Shown: positions 40,701 to 49,700 of the stretch, piece by piece
Layout: each line of letters opens with the position of its first letter
How positions within the stretch are numbered: the stretch's first letter is position 1
Source: Haliotis rubra
Lineage: Eukaryota
Reading direction: 5' to 3'
NCBI RefSeq assembly: GCF_003918875.1
Contig: NW_025767222.1
Location: 372,001 to 427,376 of the forward strand
DNA length: 55,376 nt
Made by a program: the position numbers

Positions 40701-43700
40701 ACTCCTACACAAAGGATAGGGCATTCTACAGAATCTGCCGGAAATCCTACAGGAATCGTAGAAAGATTTAACACGGAACATCCGGAAGACTCATTCATAT
40801 TGATGACTGAATCCCTGTTAGTGGCGGCCATTACGCCTCCCCACCTTATCCATGAAACTGTCACGTCCATGGTTAATATTGGTCATCCTCCAGAACCTTT
40901 CCAACTGCCGACTCCGTTTGATAGATCTGCAAACATCTTCCCGGAGTTCCCGTCTCAGATCGTAGCCACGGAGTCCGAGTACTGTGGAAAGACGTGTGAA
41001 TTTGACTATCAACATACACGTTTCTTTGAGCGCGGAAACTGTGAGATATGTCGATGTGATGAAGAATGTTTTCTGTATGATGACTGTTGTCCCGATTACT
41101 TTATTCTCAGGAATCAGACCTCTGTAGCTGCTCCATATAGCTGTGAAAATACAAGTCCAGACATTGAGAAAACAGATTCAAGTTGGTACTACATGATCAG
41201 ATCGTGCACAGTCACCTCCAGTCCAGGTCTTGTACAGGAGTGCCTCGATCGACACTCTAAAGACTGGGAGCATCAGGTTCCAGTTGAAGACGCAAAGACT
41301 GGACATTTCTATAGGAACAAATTCTGCGCACTGTGCAACAATGTGATAGTTTTTAATAACTGGGAGACGCAATTAATATGCAAATCATATCCAAGCAGTT
41401 TAAAGGAAGCCAGGTCTTCAGAAGAAATTTACAACTCTGCTCTAGAGGATTCTTCTTGTTATATCAAATTTCTACCTTCGGATCCAACTTCTTTGAGAAA
41501 ATGTACCTATCGTGAGGAAAGTGTCATATCGTCATGTAACGTTACAGGGAAATGGGTGTTCTACGACCAAAGGGTGGTGGAAGCCTGCGAGAGGTTTTCT
41601 CACATTGTGCATGGGAAATACAGAAATGTATTCTGTTATGTGCAACAACAACTACGGCTGGCAGTTCATCCTTAGAGAGAATGGGTTTAACCGTATCGTT
41701 GTCGACGCCATTTCCCTGACCACACTGCTGAACTTTGAGAGTCACGATGCCGTTCCAAGAACGCAGCGTGTTGAAGAGCTAACGAATGGTCATTGCAGGC
41801 GTGATCAGGTCCTGGACCACTTTATTGTAAGTATAGCTTTCCATACATGCATAATAAATACACGGTGGCCATGAGTGAGAGAGTGATAAGTGAAGAGTGA
41901 GTTAAATGCAACATGTGTTTTATTTGGGATCATACTTCAGTAACCCATGCTTGTCGTAAGAGGGGACTAACGGGATCGGGTGCCCAGGCTTGCTGACTTG
42001 GTTGACACATGTCATCGTATTCCATTTGCGTAGATCGATGTCATGCTGTTGATCACTGGATATTCTGGTCCAGATTGGATTATGAAGAGACCACCGCCAT
42101 ATAGCTGAGTGTGGCGTTAAACAACAAACTATATGATTGGAACAAGGACGGTTATCTAAACATACCACGTGATAAGTATGGTCAGTCCCTGTTCTCTGGA
42201 CATATACTCTCTCTCCAAAACGAAACGCAGAGGTGATATTGATTTATGAAATAAATTTTAGATAAATTTTAAAATTTCTGTTTGTTATAATTTTGCCATT
42301 ATAATGCTGGTTTGTGTTTATGGAACGAATGCACAGCGCAAAAACGAATTTTCGGAAACTTTAATGCATGTTTACGTTCGAAAGTGTCAACTTGCATGAA
42401 AATGTTATGGAGAAAAAGTTATGGATATGCACGTGCAGTTCTGAGGTAGCGTGCACAGGGGCATTGCCTATACAAGGCCGTTTTGCTTTAGACAGTAATT
42501 TTCATTTTTACGCTAAATAAAAGAATTTCGTTATTGCGCGACTTACTGCTGTAAATGGAAACATTGCCACTGGAAGTCTTGAGGCTGGGTTGTCACAGTC
42601 GGCCGTTTCTGCAACTGTAAGTGCAGTGCCTATTCTGGGGAGAGTGTAGGCGCAAACCATTCGTGATCGTTTACGAGAAGCTGGACTCAGCGCCAGATTT
42701 TGGTCTCGCTCTGCACTGGTGCAATAACGTTCGATTCTGGAATCTGGAGAAATGGCCAACGTGTATGGTTCATTGAAGAATATCATACTCGCAGAAATAT
42801 AACTTTGTGTGCCTTCATGGCAATTTAACTGCTATTTGGCACAGAGACGAAATCTCCAGGATTCACTTGATTTCGATCAATGACCGCCAGAGGGAGTTGT
42901 TCCAGCAAGAAAAAGCAGGCATCACACAGCACTATTCAGTATCTTCAGAATGAGAACATTGAAGTACTTCCGTGGCCTTCCAAATCGTCCTTTCTCAACC
43001 CCATCGAGCATTTGTGGGATCACCTCGACTGACGCGTACGTGAGTTGGCCAGAATTCCATAAGATCGAATTCAAAGACTTATTCAGTCCATGTCGAGACC
43101 AGTGGCGGATCCAGAGGTGTGCGTACGTGCGTGCGTGCGTGTGTGTCCATTCTAAGGAATCGATTTCAGACTGGCAGTTTGACCACTCGGACCATTCCTG
43201 GCTTACGTCCAATACAGTTCCAGGACTGTATGGAACCGACTGAGGGAGCACAACATCTGGCCCTGACGGCATGCGATACGTCCTTTATTGCTCCAACGTC
43301 ACCGAGAGGCACGTCTTGCCTGGTGCAGACAGCATCTACGGTACAAGATTGGGATGGTATTGGGATTGAGACAAGATTGGGATGGTATTTTGTTCACTCA
43401 TGAGTTGATTTTGTTCACTGACGAGTTGACAGCTCTCATGGAAGGGCAAGTGTGTACAGACGGAGTTGTTCAACGTCTACAGTTTGGTGGCGTAGGCGTT
43501 ATTGTATGGAGACACATCACATCTCACAGTCTCATGGACACAACTTGTCATTGTCATTGGCAATCTGACAGGTTCGCAGTACAGGGATGAGATTATTGAG
43601 CCTCATGTGCAGCCGTTCATTCAAGACGTAACTTCACGCTTTAACAAGATAATGCCCGTGCACATGTCGCTTGTGTTGTGACAGATTTCCTGAGACAGCA

Positions 43701-46700: not shown

Positions 46701-49700
46701 AACAACAAGTCACTGAGATACATGCTTCTGAAGAACTGTTGTAGTCCATTGGTCAGTCCTCGTGGTCAGTGCCCGAGGTCAGTGCTCGTAGTCAGTCCTC
46801 GTGGTCAGTGCTCGAGGTCAGTGCTCGTGGTCAGTGCTCGAGGTCAGTGCTCGTGGTCAGTGGTGGAATCATGCTGCTGGTCTGGACTCTCTTTGTACTG
46901 TTGGTGTGGGACAAGAGCCTTCGTTGTTCAACTTCAGCACAGTTGACTCAGCCCGTCAAGGATGAGATAACAACAACTAATAAACCAGGATTTAGTTTCA
47001 AATATCCTACACAACCAAAAGTGACGATGACAAGGGTAACAGCGAGCAATTTAGATGGCGATGAAACCTCAGATGTTACACCAGACACTACGCCCGTCAT
47101 TGCCCCAGGCTTTATACCCCGTTCTGATATTGGAACGTCACAACAGACAAACTCGGGAACAACGTCAACTATGGCCAACAAGCAGCAAGAACCATCTACC
47201 GTAACTGCTACATTTCATTTTATCCTAACTGCACCACCGCCTATGACGCCTCAAGTCAGAAAGCTAAACGCCTTTGACATAGCTTCCAACTATTTTCGTG
47301 AGTTTCCGTCCCAGGTCGTAGCTTCGGAATCTGAGTACTGTGGGCAGACGTGTAACTTTACGTATCCACAAATACGTACTTCAGTGCGCTTAACCTGTGA
47401 CAAATGTCGATGTGACGAAGAATGTGTTCTGTATGATGACTGTTGTCCCGATTACTTGATTCTCAGGAATCAGACCTCTGTGGCTGCTCCATATAGCTGT
47501 GAAAATACAAGTCCAGACATGGACATATTCGCGACGAATTGGTATTACATGATCAGATCGTGCACAGTCACCTCCACTCCAGGTCTTGTACAGGAGTGCC
47601 TCGATCGACACTCTAAAGACTGGGAGCATCAGGTTCCAGTTGAAGACGCAAAGACTGGACATCTGTACAGGAACAAATTCTGCGCACTGTGCAACAATGT
47701 GACAGTTTTTAATAACTGGGACGTTAAATTGAAATGCGATATATATCCGAGCATTTTAAAGGAAGCTAAATCATCAGAAGACATTTACAACATTGCTGTA
47801 GAATCTAGTGCGTGTGATGTCAAGTTTTTACCTACAGGTGGAAGCGTTTTAAGAAGTTGTAACTATCGTGAGGAAAGTTTCATATCCTCATGCAACGTCA
47901 CAGGACAATGGGAGGTTTATGACAGAAGAGTAGTGGAAGCCTGCGAGAGATTCACCCATGTTGTCGCCGGAAAGTACCGCAATGTGTTTTGTTACGTTTG
48001 CAATACACATGAGGACTGGTGTGAAATCCTGCATAAAAGGGTTGCTGCCCTGGGTTGTTGACGGTGTGGGGCTTACCTCACTGTTGGACTTCGGGGATCA
48101 TGCAGTTAAACAGCCGATGGGCATTGTCGAGCTGAAGATAGATGTGTGTGGAAGGAATCAGTTTTATGACAATGTTATTGTAAGTACATGGCGTTTGAAT
48201 ACTTACATATGTAACAATGCACCTAAGTAATCAGTTGTACATTATGTCTTATATACCAATGCTCACGGGATTTACTGCTCCGTGTTCAACTTGGGAACAG
48301 GTGTCTGACCCACAAACGTCTTAAGAAACATACATGGGTTATCTATAAACTTACCACAAAACTGAATGTTACTTTTGAATATTTTGAATTTTTTTTTATT
48401 TTACTAAACATTTGACTGACATGTCAGTTCCTAATTATCAGCATTTTCAAATATCTCAATGTTTTTATTGTCAGATATCTCAAAGTATTCAATCTGTTAA
48501 TGTGTTCTACTTTGTGAGAGTCACTGTCTCTGCAACGGAATTGTGCATTTAATTCTCCTGTTGGCTAAACCCGAAACCCTACTCTTGATAATTTTAACAA
48601 TGAAAGAATAGTTTAAATCTTGTACAATGTACTACCTTTAGACTGGCTTCTGTTCTTCTGAACTCAGCGTCAAACTAAGCATACCAAGCATACTACTTGT
48701 ATACTGATTTCTTCCACGTACCATGAGGTGCGGTGGGGTAGCCTAGTGGTTAAAGCGTTTCTCGTCACACCGAAGAATAGAGGAATGATTTCAACTTTCC
48801 AGTAGTCAACTTCTCTTTCATGCAATATTCCAACAGCCCCAGCCTTTGGTGTTTACATTTCACAACTTTTTAGGTACAACCAACGTGCTTTTTATCAGGA
48901 TTTCAAAGAGCGTCATACCATTCTTGCCAAGAAGTTGTTTGAACAAGGTTACAACATTCAAGGCATCAGCAAAGCTTTCAATATGTTTTATGGCAGACAT
49001 GCGGAGGAACTTTCCAAACTTGATGCTTCGGTGACAAAATGATGTCCGATGAAATTCTTATTTTGACTTATACCATACCTTCCCGAATTACTTCCCGGCT
49101 AGACTAGCATATTTGTATGAGGAATGCTATCGGTGGGGCATGATACGCTCACCTTTTCGCGAACAACTGGTATCTTCACTATATCATAAACACATCCCCT
49201 GTCGTCGTATCGCATGTTGACAATTACTGGATTGTCTGCTCCAGACTCGATTGTTTTACACACAACATCGTGTAGCTGTAACACTGCAGAAACAATTATA
49301 TACTCATGATATAGTCACAATTATACAATCGACTTTGCTTTAAGGAGAAATTTCTTATGGATGAGGAAACCTTTTGGCAGTTTCTATTATAATAATCAAC
49401 AGAGAAATTCTAAAATATTCTACAATATATAGTTTTCAGAAAAATGCCTGTAATAATATTATCCGGGAATGATAATGCCATGCATTAAGAAGTTACCATT
49501 TCGTAAATATATTCAATTGATGTCATTTGATCTCATTGATTGGATCAATATATATATATAACGTTTGTTCGCAATATTTTGAATTCTACGTGTTTCCGTT
49601 TAATTTGTCCCTATTGGGCGTTATTATAGAGACAGTAAGAAGTTTCCGGCTAAATTGTTTATCTCGGACGCTGGAGACAACAGCTGAGCTTTTTCTAATA

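What the first reader, a model, noticed from the sequence alone, without database searches (positions are those of the whole stretch)
41049..47720. Patchwork identity between exons A and B: gene-conversion tract with a hypervariable island
Seen: 41049-41365 and ~47405-47720 are almost identical at nucleotide level, including synonymous sites (CRCDEEC...NNW). The flanking coding sequence is clearly diverged and the stalks are unalignable. Inside the tract one ~19-nt patch is completely different (IEKTDSSW versus MDIFATNW). Inference: recent ectopic gene conversion homogenised the SMB-like core while a short, possibly specificity-determining loop was kept or made different, as in diversifying immune or recognition receptors.
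Basis: partly seen in the sequence, partly recalled or inferred. Interest (0 to 1): 0.65.

Follow-up and report, generated by a model that had tools for sequence, protein, structure and literature searches.

The report
Patchy gene conversion between receptor exons
Two duplicated first exons of an abalone-type receptor gene have recently copied about 300 bases from one to the other, skipping an 18-base stretch that encodes a variable loop; this is a clear but ordinary example of a well-known process.

Summary
Exon A (40372-41826) and exon B (46871-48179) align without gaps at an offset of 6356. A change-point fit recovers 41048-41365 as a low-divergence tract: 10 of 299 bases differ outside the island, against 28% in the flanks. 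Synonymous divergence is dS ~0.09 in the tract and 0.77-1.17 in the flanks. An 18-nt island (41165-41182) has 11 mismatches. Non-allelic gene conversion is the best explanation. The island was left unconverted, not made different afterwards: it fits the flank divergence, and A's island is still A-type (5 of 8 residues shared with the Haliotis asinina A-orthologue). It lies in a beta-hairpin loop that varies in length across the family. Selection for a specificity loop is possible but untested; patchy mismatch repair is enough to explain it. New context: A and B are paralogous first exons, each with its own start codon and signal peptide and a phase-0 donor. They lie upstream of the window's single 7TM exon (51204-52928) of a mollusc DUF8401/SMB-like 7tm_2 receptor. 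As assembled, both first exons have frame breaks. Protein-level trees cannot resolve the tract. No reads, transcripts or orthologous DNA were available.

The parts
40372..41826 (+). First exon A: start codon, signal-peptide-like N-terminus, A-type stalk, DUF8401/SMB-like cysteine-rich module, phase-0 donor ATT|GTAAGT
   Evidence: H. asinina protein P0151 maps here in three frames: residues 1-64 at 40372-40563, 65-406 at 40590-41639, about 407-470 at 41640-41829. Donor read. The window's own ORF piece P0177 carries precomputed PF28443.
41048..41365 (+). Conversion tract, copy in A
   Evidence: Change-point fit, dS and permutation tests.
41165..41182 (+). Unconverted island in A (codons 41163-41186, IEKTDSSW)
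   Evidence: 11 of 18 bases differ from B. 5 of 8 residues match the H. asinina A-type exon. No second copy in the window.
40555..40590 (+). Frame break 1 of exon A, between the signal-peptide frame and the main ORF; it sits beside a 55-nt direct repeat
   Evidence: tblastn frames, sequence, repeat positions 40567 and 40622.
41639..41643 (+). Frame break 2 of exon A: A is 2 nt shorter than B here, giving an in-frame stop at 41673-41675
   Evidence: Nucleotide alignment, three-frame translation, tblastn.
46871..48179 (+). First exon B: start codon, signal-peptide-like N-terminus, B-type stalk, the same module, phase-0 donor ATT|GTAAGT
   Evidence: H. rufescens protein P0001 maps at 46871-48043 and 48042-48182 in two frames. 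Donor read.
47404..47721 (+). Conversion tract, copy in B
   Evidence: Offset 6356 from the A tract.
47521..47538 (+). Unconverted island in B (codons 47519-47542, MDIFATNW)
   Evidence: No second copy in the window. No similar loop at the homologous position in 189 retrieved proteins.
48035..48043 (+). Frame break of exon B in a run of A and G bases, giving an in-frame stop at 48059-48061
51204..52928 (+). The only 7TM exon in the window (juxtamembrane region plus 7tm_2); phase-0 acceptor ttcacag|GCG
   Evidence: Pfam 7tm_2, 64 bits against a cut-off of 20.6. Single tblastn match in the window. 87% identical to P0151 residues 471-1043 in one frame. Acceptor read.

Best explanation
A and B are two old tandem paralogous first exons, lying in the same orientation 6356 bases apart. 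They belong to a mollusc-specific receptor gene whose protein joins an N-terminal cysteine-rich DUF8401/SMB-like module to a secretin-family 7TM domain. The genome is abalone-like. One non-allelic gene conversion event, recent compared with the duplication, copied about 316 bases from one exon into the other. That reset both synonymous and non-synonymous divergence to about 3%. The tract is discontinuous. An 18-24 base segment, already the most diverged part of the region, was not converted, most simply because the heteroduplex there was repaired back to the recipient's own sequence (patchy repair). That segment encodes the connecting loop of a beta-hairpin between two invariant cysteines, a loop that varies in sequence and length across the whole family. 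Shown: the tract, its borders, the dS drop, the flank-like state of the island, the A-type identity of A's island, and the loop's position in a confident model. Inferred: one event instead of two, patchy repair as the cause, and the direction of transfer (unresolved).
For: The dS, change-point and synonymous-codon figures are given under the observation check.

Amino-acid differences A-B against A-orthologue are 50 and 21 of 136 in the flanks, but 5 and 14 of 97 in the tract (Fisher p = 0.001). Against the orthologue pair P0151-P0001 the figure is p = 0.004.

An A+B clade is rejected in the flanks (delta lnL 29.9, p-AU 0.0006) but not in the tract (p-AU 0.58).

Much of the tract is highly variable family-wide (core residues 66-87 have entropy above 3 bits). 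A-type orthologues also differ about as much in the tract (14 of 97) as in the flanks (21 of 136). Protein constraint therefore does not explain the identity.

The island: P = 1.5e-12 at the tract rate and about 0.32, scan-corrected, at the flank rate. A's island matches the A-orthologue at 5 of 8 residues.

The two sub-tracts are equally diverged (4 of 117 and 6 of 183, p = 1.0), which fits a single event.

Structure: mean pLDDT 93.2, with the island between strands 79-83 and 95-99. The Cys-to-Cys segment is 17-35 residues long in 60 family rows.

Discontinuous tracts from patchy repair are documented (PMC2853141, passages). Regional conversion among tandem variable exons is documented (PMC1852091, passages).
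Against: In the tract, the protein-level AU test does not reject the orthology grouping either (A with A-orthologue, p-AU 0.39). The phylogenetic incongruence therefore rests on identity counts and on nucleotide dS between only two sequences.

Within the tract alone, A-B against A-orthologue differences are only borderline (5 against 14 of 97, p = 0.051; against B-orthologue p = 0.081).

GC3 is not raised in the tract (44 and 51 of 106, against 23 and 20 of 44 and 35 and 35 of 91 in the flanks). This is weak evidence, since a single event need not raise it.

B's island shares only 1 of 8 residues with the H. rufescens B-type exon. So 'B kept its ancestral island' is not shown directly. P0001 is only 64-67% identical to B and may not be a strict orthologue.

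No orthologous DNA, no other paralogues from this genome and no reads were available.

Both exons have frame breaks as assembled, which leaves some doubt about local assembly quality.
Confidence: 0.78

Rival explanations
1. Gene conversion occurred, and natural selection kept the island different because the hairpin loop sets ligand or partner specificity. Converted products that also homogenised the loop were removed from the population.
For: The island is a hairpin loop between invariant cysteines, in the two lowest-confidence blocks of the core (pLDDT 83 and 85). It is an indel hotspot family-wide (mean 2.6 inserted residues, entropy 3.5-3.8 bits). It is the fastest-changing piece between orthologues (3 of 8 and 7 of 8 residues differ). 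An N-x-S/T sequon (NTS) lies four residues before it in both copies, which suggests surface exposure by inference.
Against: No test of selection was possible. The island's dN/dS is about 0.63 on 8 codons. Several other loops of the module are just as variable, so variability may only reflect weak constraint. The island's divergence is not beyond the flank background once the scan is allowed for (P ~0.32). No ligand or function is known for this family: 0 papers for DUF8401 and 0 for somatomedin B + secretin + GPCR + mollusc.
Confidence: 0.22
2. Two independent conversion events, one on each side of the island (41048-41164 and 41183-41365), not one discontinuous tract.
For: Short tracts of 100-200 nt are ordinary. 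The highly diverged island would be a natural end point for heteroduplex extension (established knowledge of homology requirements, not tested here).
Against: The two sub-tracts have the same divergence (4 of 117 and 6 of 183, p = 1.0; dS 0.095 and 0.087). Two events would therefore have to be nearly simultaneous, and both would have to end within a few bases of the same island.
Confidence: 0.12
3. The conversion covered the island as well, and B's island was later overwritten by a second short templated event from a third paralogue elsewhere in the genome.
For: B's island resembles neither the A-type nor the H. rufescens B-type (1 of 8 residues each). The family is large: 1004 representatives at E <= 0.001.
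Against: No second copy of either island exists in the window, even with up to 3 mismatches. None of the 189 retrieved proteins has a similar loop at the homologous position; the best chance matches are 5 of 8 residues, at unrelated positions. The rest of this genome could not be searched.
Confidence: 0.08
4. Assembly or polishing artefact: reads from one copy were used to correct the other, or a chimeric join made the tract look identical.
For: Both exons have small frame breaks as assembled, one of them in a homopolymer context. That could mean residual indel errors nearby. The window also contains a 160-base N gap at 6514-6673.
Against: Flanks that are 28% diverged give no basis for cross-mapping into the tract unless it was already similar. 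The tract keeps 10 scattered differences plus an intact island in each copy. Each copy's flanks and stalk match a different named Haliotis protein. The 575-codon 7TM exon shows no frame break against P0151.
Confidence: 0.04
5. No conversion: the tract is held constant at the nucleotide level by an overlapping function (structured RNA, embedded non-coding RNA, splicing signals) or by a local mutational cold spot.
For: None found. It is considered only because low dS is the main evidence for conversion.
Against: Rfam gives 0 matches in the whole window at gathering scores. The tract RNAs fold no better than shuffles (z = +1.59 for A, -0.76 for B; flank control +0.43). A-type orthologues differ at 14 of 97 residues in the tract, about the flank rate, so the region is not frozen.
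Confidence: 0.02

Closest known systems
Regional gene conversion among tandem variable first exons of clustered protocadherins in teleosts (PMC1852091, passages read; it cites Noonan et al. 2004, which I did not read)
   Same: Tandem paralogous exons that each encode an ectodomain. Part of each exon is homogenised, including synonymous sites, while another part stays diverged. The argument from synonymous sites is the same.
   Different: Here there are two exons instead of dozens, one tract of about 0.3 kb, no GC3 rise, an internal unconverted island instead of a 5'/3' split, and a 7TM receptor of an unrelated family. Use of both exons in transcripts is not shown.
Discontinuous conversion tracts from patchy mismatch repair at mouse recombination hot spots (PMC2853141, passages read)
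   Same: Converted stretches are interrupted by unconverted markers, at a scale of a few hundred bases. Such tracts were seen most often where polymorphism is dense.
   Different: Those are allelic events seen directly in crossover molecules. Here the event is non-allelic, fixed, and inferred from two paralogues.
Concerted evolution of VERL repeats in abalone (PMC2704960, passages read; it cites Swanson and Vacquier 1998, not read)
   Same: The same animal group. A receptor-like extracellular protein in which some repeated units are homogenised and others evolve independently.
   Different: VERL homogenises about 20 whole repeats within one gene at 95% identity or more. Here it is one short tract between two exons, in an unrelated protein family.
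Variable-first-exon loci such as UGT1 (PMC1885805 and PMC3325998, search listing and start of abstract only)
   Same: Tandem first exons, each able to start a protein, followed by shared downstream exons. The splice phases are compatible.
   Different: Promoters and transcripts were not examined here. No shared upstream motif was found. Both first exons have frame breaks as assembled.
Somatomedin-B-containing adhesion GPCRs of amphioxus (PMC2246102, passages read; its supplementary alignments could not be seen)
   Same: A cysteine-rich SMB-type element in the N-terminus of a family-2 7TM receptor.
   Different: The SMB match here is below Pfam's cut-off. No GPS/GAIN match was found. Most of the module is DUF8401, and no relationship to the amphioxus genes was tested.

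Membership tests
Non-allelic (interlocus) gene conversion | A bounded segment where paralogue divergence drops sharply, synonymous sites included | tested here: met
   dS 0.09 against 0.77-1.17. Synonymous codon differences 4 of 89 against 34 of 85, p = 6.9e-9. Change-point LLR 30.5 against a permutation maximum of 11.2.
Non-allelic (interlocus) gene conversion | Inside the segment the paralogues group together, outside it they group with their orthologues | tested here: inconclusive
   Identity counts fit: tract A-B 92 of 97, against 83 and 84 of 97 for the orthologue pairs; flanks 86 of 136, against 115 and 99 of 136. The AU test rejects A+B in the flanks (p = 0.0006) but cannot choose a topology in the tract (p = 0.58 and 0.39). 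Only proteins of one orthologue of each type were available.
Non-allelic (interlocus) gene conversion | Donor and recipient close together in the same orientation, with stretches of perfect identity available | tested here: met
   Both on the + strand, 6356 bases apart. Identical runs of up to 85 nt.
Non-allelic (interlocus) gene conversion | Raised GC3 in converted DNA (a signature of repeated biased conversion; not obligatory) | tested here: not met
   Tract 44 and 51 of 106. Flanks 23 and 20 of 44, and 35 and 35 of 91.
Non-allelic (interlocus) gene conversion | Both copies confirmed by independent reads | not testable with these tools
   No reads and no second assembly were available.
Secretin-family (7tm_2) receptor | 7tm_2 domain above Pfam's curated cut-off | tested here: met
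   64 bits against 20.6 for the ORF at 51144-52925. The same domain is found in P0151, P0006, P0012 and P0152.
Adhesion GPCR | GAIN/GPS autoproteolysis region directly before the 7TM | tested here: not met
   No GPS or GAIN family at E <= 0.1 in the exon-2 ORF, or at E <= 0.01 in 5 relatives, 4 of them full-length. One distant relative is named 'adhesion G protein-coupled receptor E2-like' by its source, but that is a label, not a test. A structural check of the juxtamembrane region was not done.
DUF8401 (PF28443, Pfam 38.1) | Match to the family model | tested here: met
   The local Pfam copy lacks the model. However, the window's own ORF piece P0177 and relatives P0001 and P0151 carry precomputed PF28443, and the atlas names it DUF8401 for the nearest clusters (scores 0.90-0.92).
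Somatomedin B domain (PF01033) | Match above Pfam's curated cut-off; the SMB disulfide knot | tested here: not met
   17.9 bits (A) and 21.2 bits (B) against a cut-off of 23.1. Autotaxin SMB structures appear only at E 4-5 in the fold search. Some relatives do carry precomputed PF01033, so 'SMB-like' is a fair description.
Variable-first-exon gene (protocadherin/UGT1 type) | Two or more tandem paralogous first exons, each with its own start codon and signal peptide | tested here: met
   ATG at 40372 and at 46871, each followed by a hydrophobic N-terminus that aligns with the N-terminus of a named Haliotis protein. That these are signal peptides is inferred from the sequence, not predicted with a tool.
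Variable-first-exon gene (protocadherin/UGT1 type) | Each first exon ends in a donor whose phase fits one shared downstream acceptor, and there is only one constant part | tested here: met
   Donors after 41826 and 48179 and the acceptor before 51204 are all phase 0. There is one 7TM match in the window. The H. asinina model P0151 joins an A-type exon to this 7TM exon.
Variable-first-exon gene (protocadherin/UGT1 type) | Transcripts joining each first exon to the constant exon; a promoter before each | not testable with these tools
   No transcript data. No shared upstream motif of 11 nt or more, and no significant local alignment in the 1 kb upstream regions.
Variable-first-exon gene (protocadherin/UGT1 type) | Open reading frames intact through each first exon | tested here: not met
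   As assembled, A has two frame breaks (about 40563-40590 and 41640) and B has one (about 48035-48043). Whether these are real or assembly errors is unknown.

The most novel reading that the evidence does not exclude
A and B are working alternative first exons of one receptor gene. That would be a protocadherin/UGT1-like 'variable ectodomain, constant 7TM' design in a large mollusc-specific DUF8401 receptor family with no known function. Gene conversion would keep the folded scaffold uniform, while the hairpin-tip loop is held different by selection because it sets what each isoform recognises.
Probability: 0.15. Interest if true: 0.6.

Novelty: new member of a known kind. Interest (0 to 1): 0.3.

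Why it matters
As it stands this is a clean, small example of non-allelic gene conversion with a discontinuous tract. It is useful as a caution for anyone building trees or dating duplications in this receptor family: the tract would mislead them. It also marks one surface loop as a candidate for specificity. The surrounding anatomy is the more useful result. There are two first exons, each able to start a protein, before a single 7TM exon of a family with about a thousand 50%-identity representatives (mollusc in every named record returned), a confident predicted fold with no solved relative, and no publication found in the searched library. If transcripts show that both exons are used, the locus becomes a simple system for asking how ectodomain variants of one receptor are generated and kept distinct.

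Tried and rejected
RNA-level constraint: Rfam found 0 matches and the tract RNAs fold no better than shuffles. Rejected.

Biased-conversion signature: GC3 is not raised. Uninformative for a single event.

Template for either island: each island has only its own copy in the window, allowing up to 3 mismatches. There is no similar loop at the homologous position in 189 retrieved proteins.

Compensating frameshift or small inversion as the origin of the island: nothing is evident by eye in the two island sequences and the reverse complement printed. 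This was not computed formally.

Shared promoter or intron motifs between A and B: none of 11 nt or more, and no significant local alignment.

A second 7TM exon for A: none in the window at E <= 1. The ORFs between A and B gave only one sub-threshold transposase-type match (HTH_Tnp_Tc3_2, 17.2 bits against a cut-off of 31.5; 1 of 7 ORFs scanned).

Direction of transfer: the sites where the two orthologues differ, counted by eye from the alignment, split about evenly and are interleaved. Unresolved.

Trees with distant outgroups were dominated by long branches. With fewer outgroups the tract stayed unresolved.

Fold search against solved structures: 0 of 200 listed matches at E <= 0.001.

Not used: complex prediction, the second structure job, the genome-contig scan (prokaryotes only, so irrelevant), and the phage, plasmid and E. 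coli DNA collections.

Full report
WHAT THE WINDOW IS

The window is eukaryotic, 34-47% G+C in 2-kb windows, with one run of N at 6514-6673 that I left alone. Nothing in it looks human. The closest named proteins come from abalone: Haliotis asinina and H. rufescens. I therefore treat it as an abalone-like gastropod genome, by inference from homology.

I searched the gene model exon by exon. I never built, searched or folded a joined exon A + exon 2 or exon B + exon 2 sequence, so that step is left out.

THE OBSERVATION

The long open frames at 40563-41675 (A) and 46745-48061 (B) align without gaps at a constant offset of 6356 from 40917 to about 41641.

There are 21 mismatches in 318 bases inside and 115 in 405 outside. 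The LLR is 30.5, against a maximum of 11.2 in 200 permutations.
- Mismatch rates: without the island, 10 of 299 bases differ (3.3%), against 28.3% in the flanks.
- Synonymous sites: among codons encoding the same degenerate amino acid, 4 of 89 differ in the tract and 34 of 85 in the flanks (p = 6.9e-9).
- NG86 dS: 0.095 and 0.087 in the two sub-tracts, 0.77 and 1.17 in the flanks.
- The island: at 41165-41182, 11 of 18 bases and 7 of 8 residues differ.

WHAT THE EXONS ARE

Pfam gives only a sub-threshold somatomedin B match in A and B (17.9 and 21.2 bits, cut-off 23.1). It gives a clear 7tm_2 match in the ORF at 51144-52928 (64 bits).

An exhaustive profile search with exon B finds 1004 representative proteins at E <= 0.001. 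Every named relative returned is from a mollusc. They carry the precomputed family PF28443, often together with 7tm_2. The protein atlas names PF28443 as DUF8401 (Pfam 38.1).

I found no paper mentioning DUF8401 (0 papers), and none combining somatomedin B, secretin, GPCR and mollusc (0 papers).

No GPS/GAIN or hormone-receptor domain is detected. I therefore call it a secretin-family 7TM receptor with a DUF8401/SMB-like ectodomain, not an adhesion GPCR.

THE GENE ANATOMY (this changes the picture)

The 1043-residue H. asinina protein P0151 has an A-type signal peptide, stalk and module. It maps onto 40372-41829 in three frames. Its C-terminal 573 residues then map, in one frame and at 87% identity, onto 51207-52925, which is the only 7TM exon in the window and lies downstream of B.

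The H. rufescens protein P0001 is B-type from its first residue. It maps onto 46871-48182 in two frames.

Both first exons end in ATT|GTAAGT, after 41826 and after 48179. The 7TM exon begins after ttcacag| at 51204. All three sites are phase 0.

So A and B are paralogous first exons. Each has its own start codon and hydrophobic N-terminus, and either one could be spliced to the single downstream exon. B sits inside what would be A's 9.4-kb intron.

Outside the coding block the two copies share nothing detectable. That fits an old duplication with flank dS near 1.

FRAME BREAKS

Measured against their relatives, both exons are broken as assembled.

- A changes frame between its signal peptide and stalk (about 40563-40590), beside a 55-base direct repeat.
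- A is also 2 bases short at about 41640, which brings a stop at 41673-41675.
- B changes frame in a run of A and G bases at about 48035-48043, with a stop at 48059-48061.

The 575-codon 7TM exon has no break. I cannot tell real mutations from assembly errors.

All 5 amino-acid differences inside the tract but outside the island are residues unique to A; B agrees with one or both Haliotis relatives at each. The two-sided binomial p is 0.06. This hints that A has been under weaker constraint since the event.

WHY GENE CONVERSION

Protein constraint cannot explain the tract.

- Much of it is highly variable across the family (core residues 66-87, entropy above 3 bits).
- A-type orthologues differ about as much in the tract (14 of 97) as in the flanks (21 of 136).
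- A and B differ at 50 of 136 flank residues but only 5 of 97 tract residues. Compared with the A-orthologue pair, that contrast gives p = 0.001.
- The AU test rejects an A+B clade in the flanks (delta lnL 29.9, p = 0.0006).

Against my reading: in the tract the protein data are too sparse. Neither A+B (p = 0.58) nor A with its orthologue (p = 0.39) is rejected. Within the tract alone, the excess similarity of A-B over the orthologue pairs is borderline (p = 0.051 and 0.081). The case therefore rests mainly on synonymous sites between two sequences.

Nucleotide-level constraint finds no support. Rfam gives 0 matches, and the tract RNAs fold no better than shuffles (z = +1.59 and -0.76; flank control +0.43).

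GC3 is not raised.

A polishing artefact is unlikely. Flanks 28% diverged give no basis for cross-mapping, and each copy keeps its own scattered differences and its own island. Without reads, though, it cannot be excluded.

THE ISLAND

At the tract's mismatch rate, 11 of 18 differences has P = 1.5e-12, so the island was not homogenised and then mutated. At the flank rate it is unremarkable once the scan is allowed for (P about 0.32, 5000 simulations). It looks like ordinary unconverted sequence.

A's island still matches the H. asinina A-type exon at 5 of 8 residues. B's island matches neither the A-type nor the H. rufescens B-type (1 of 8 each).

The two sub-tracts are equally diverged (4 of 117 and 6 of 183). 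That favours one event with a discontinuous tract over two separate events. Such tracts, attributed to patchy mismatch repair, are documented at a similar scale (PMC2853141, passages).

STRUCTURE

I built a model of B's module (residues encoded by 47258-48040) with a 60-row family alignment.

- It is confident: mean pLDDT 93.2, pTM 0.86.
- The island (core residues 88-95) lies between strands 79-83 and 95-99, between invariant cysteines C81 and C102, in the two lowest-confidence blocks of the core (83 and 85).
- Across the 60 rows the Cys-to-Cys segment is 17-35 residues long, and the island columns have entropy of 3.5-3.8 bits with an insertion hotspot.
- Other loops of the module are just as variable.

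The module has no solved structural relative: 0 of 200 listed matches at E <= 0.001.

COMPARISON WITH WHAT IS KNOWN

The closest parallel is regional gene conversion among tandem variable exons of teleost protocadherin clusters. There too, part of each ectodomain exon is homogenised, synonymous sites included (PMC1852091, passages).

In abalone itself, VERL repeats 3-22 are homogenised while repeats 1 and 2 evolve independently (PMC2704960, passages).

The present case is a small new example of that known kind. What is specific to it is the internal unconverted loop and the two-first-exon layout in an uncharacterised mollusc receptor family.

VERDICT

- Conversion is well supported.
- The island was 'kept', not 'made different'. 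Whether selection kept it is open.
- The immune-receptor analogy is not supported by anything I could test.
- Interest is modest (0.3). It would rise if transcripts show both first exons in use and the loop proves to be under positive selection.

Noticed in passing
window 46737-46879: About eleven tandem copies of a 13-base unit (GGTCAGTGCTCGN-like) run right up to and over exon B's start codon at 46871. No counterpart exists before exon A.
   Followed up: partly
window 40567-40750: A's stalk holds a 55-base direct repeat (the same 15-mer at 40567 and 40622) and four copies of a 9-mer. The repeat length is not a multiple of three and coincides with the first frame break of exon A. A GT...AG interval at 40555-40652 (98 bases) would restore the frame if it were spliced out, but its acceptor has no pyrimidine tract.
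   Followed up: partly
window 41639-41643 and 48035-48043: Both first exons have a small frame break in their last 190 bases, each bringing a premature stop before the shared-type donor, while the 575-codon 7TM exon is intact. The cause is either a locus losing both N-terminal exons or local assembly indels.
   Followed up: partly
window 47258-48040 (protein module): The DUF8401/SMB-like module folds with high confidence (pLDDT 93.2), yet has no significant match among solved structures. Many family members carry three to five copies of the module in one protein (the 'stretches' column).
   Followed up: partly
window 15565-16890: A 442-codon open exon with no Pfam match aligns to solved ubiquitin-protein ligase E3A structures (E = 4e-85, residues 70-386). 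A UBE3A-like gene therefore lies upstream on the + strand.
   Followed up: partly
window 38930-39504, 41935-42135, 49212-49290, 53288-54890: Several copies of short interspersed repeats lie around and between the exons, some with tRNA-like heads (53763-53837 and 54759-54833). A weak Tc3-type transposase remnant lies at 43267-43587 between A and B. P0001, the H. rufescens B-type model, ends in a tail (from residue 444) that does not match this receptor and may derive from a transposon (resemblance recalled, not tested).
   Followed up: no
window 41346-41348 against 47702-47704: A has lost an N-x-T sequon (NVT in B and in both Haliotis relatives, NVI in A). This is one of five residues inside the tract that are unique to A.
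   Followed up: no
window 6485-6925: The N run at 6514-6673 is flanked by a simple CTCA-rich repeat, which reads as THSL repeats on the minus strand. This is probably the reason for the assembly gap.
   Followed up: no
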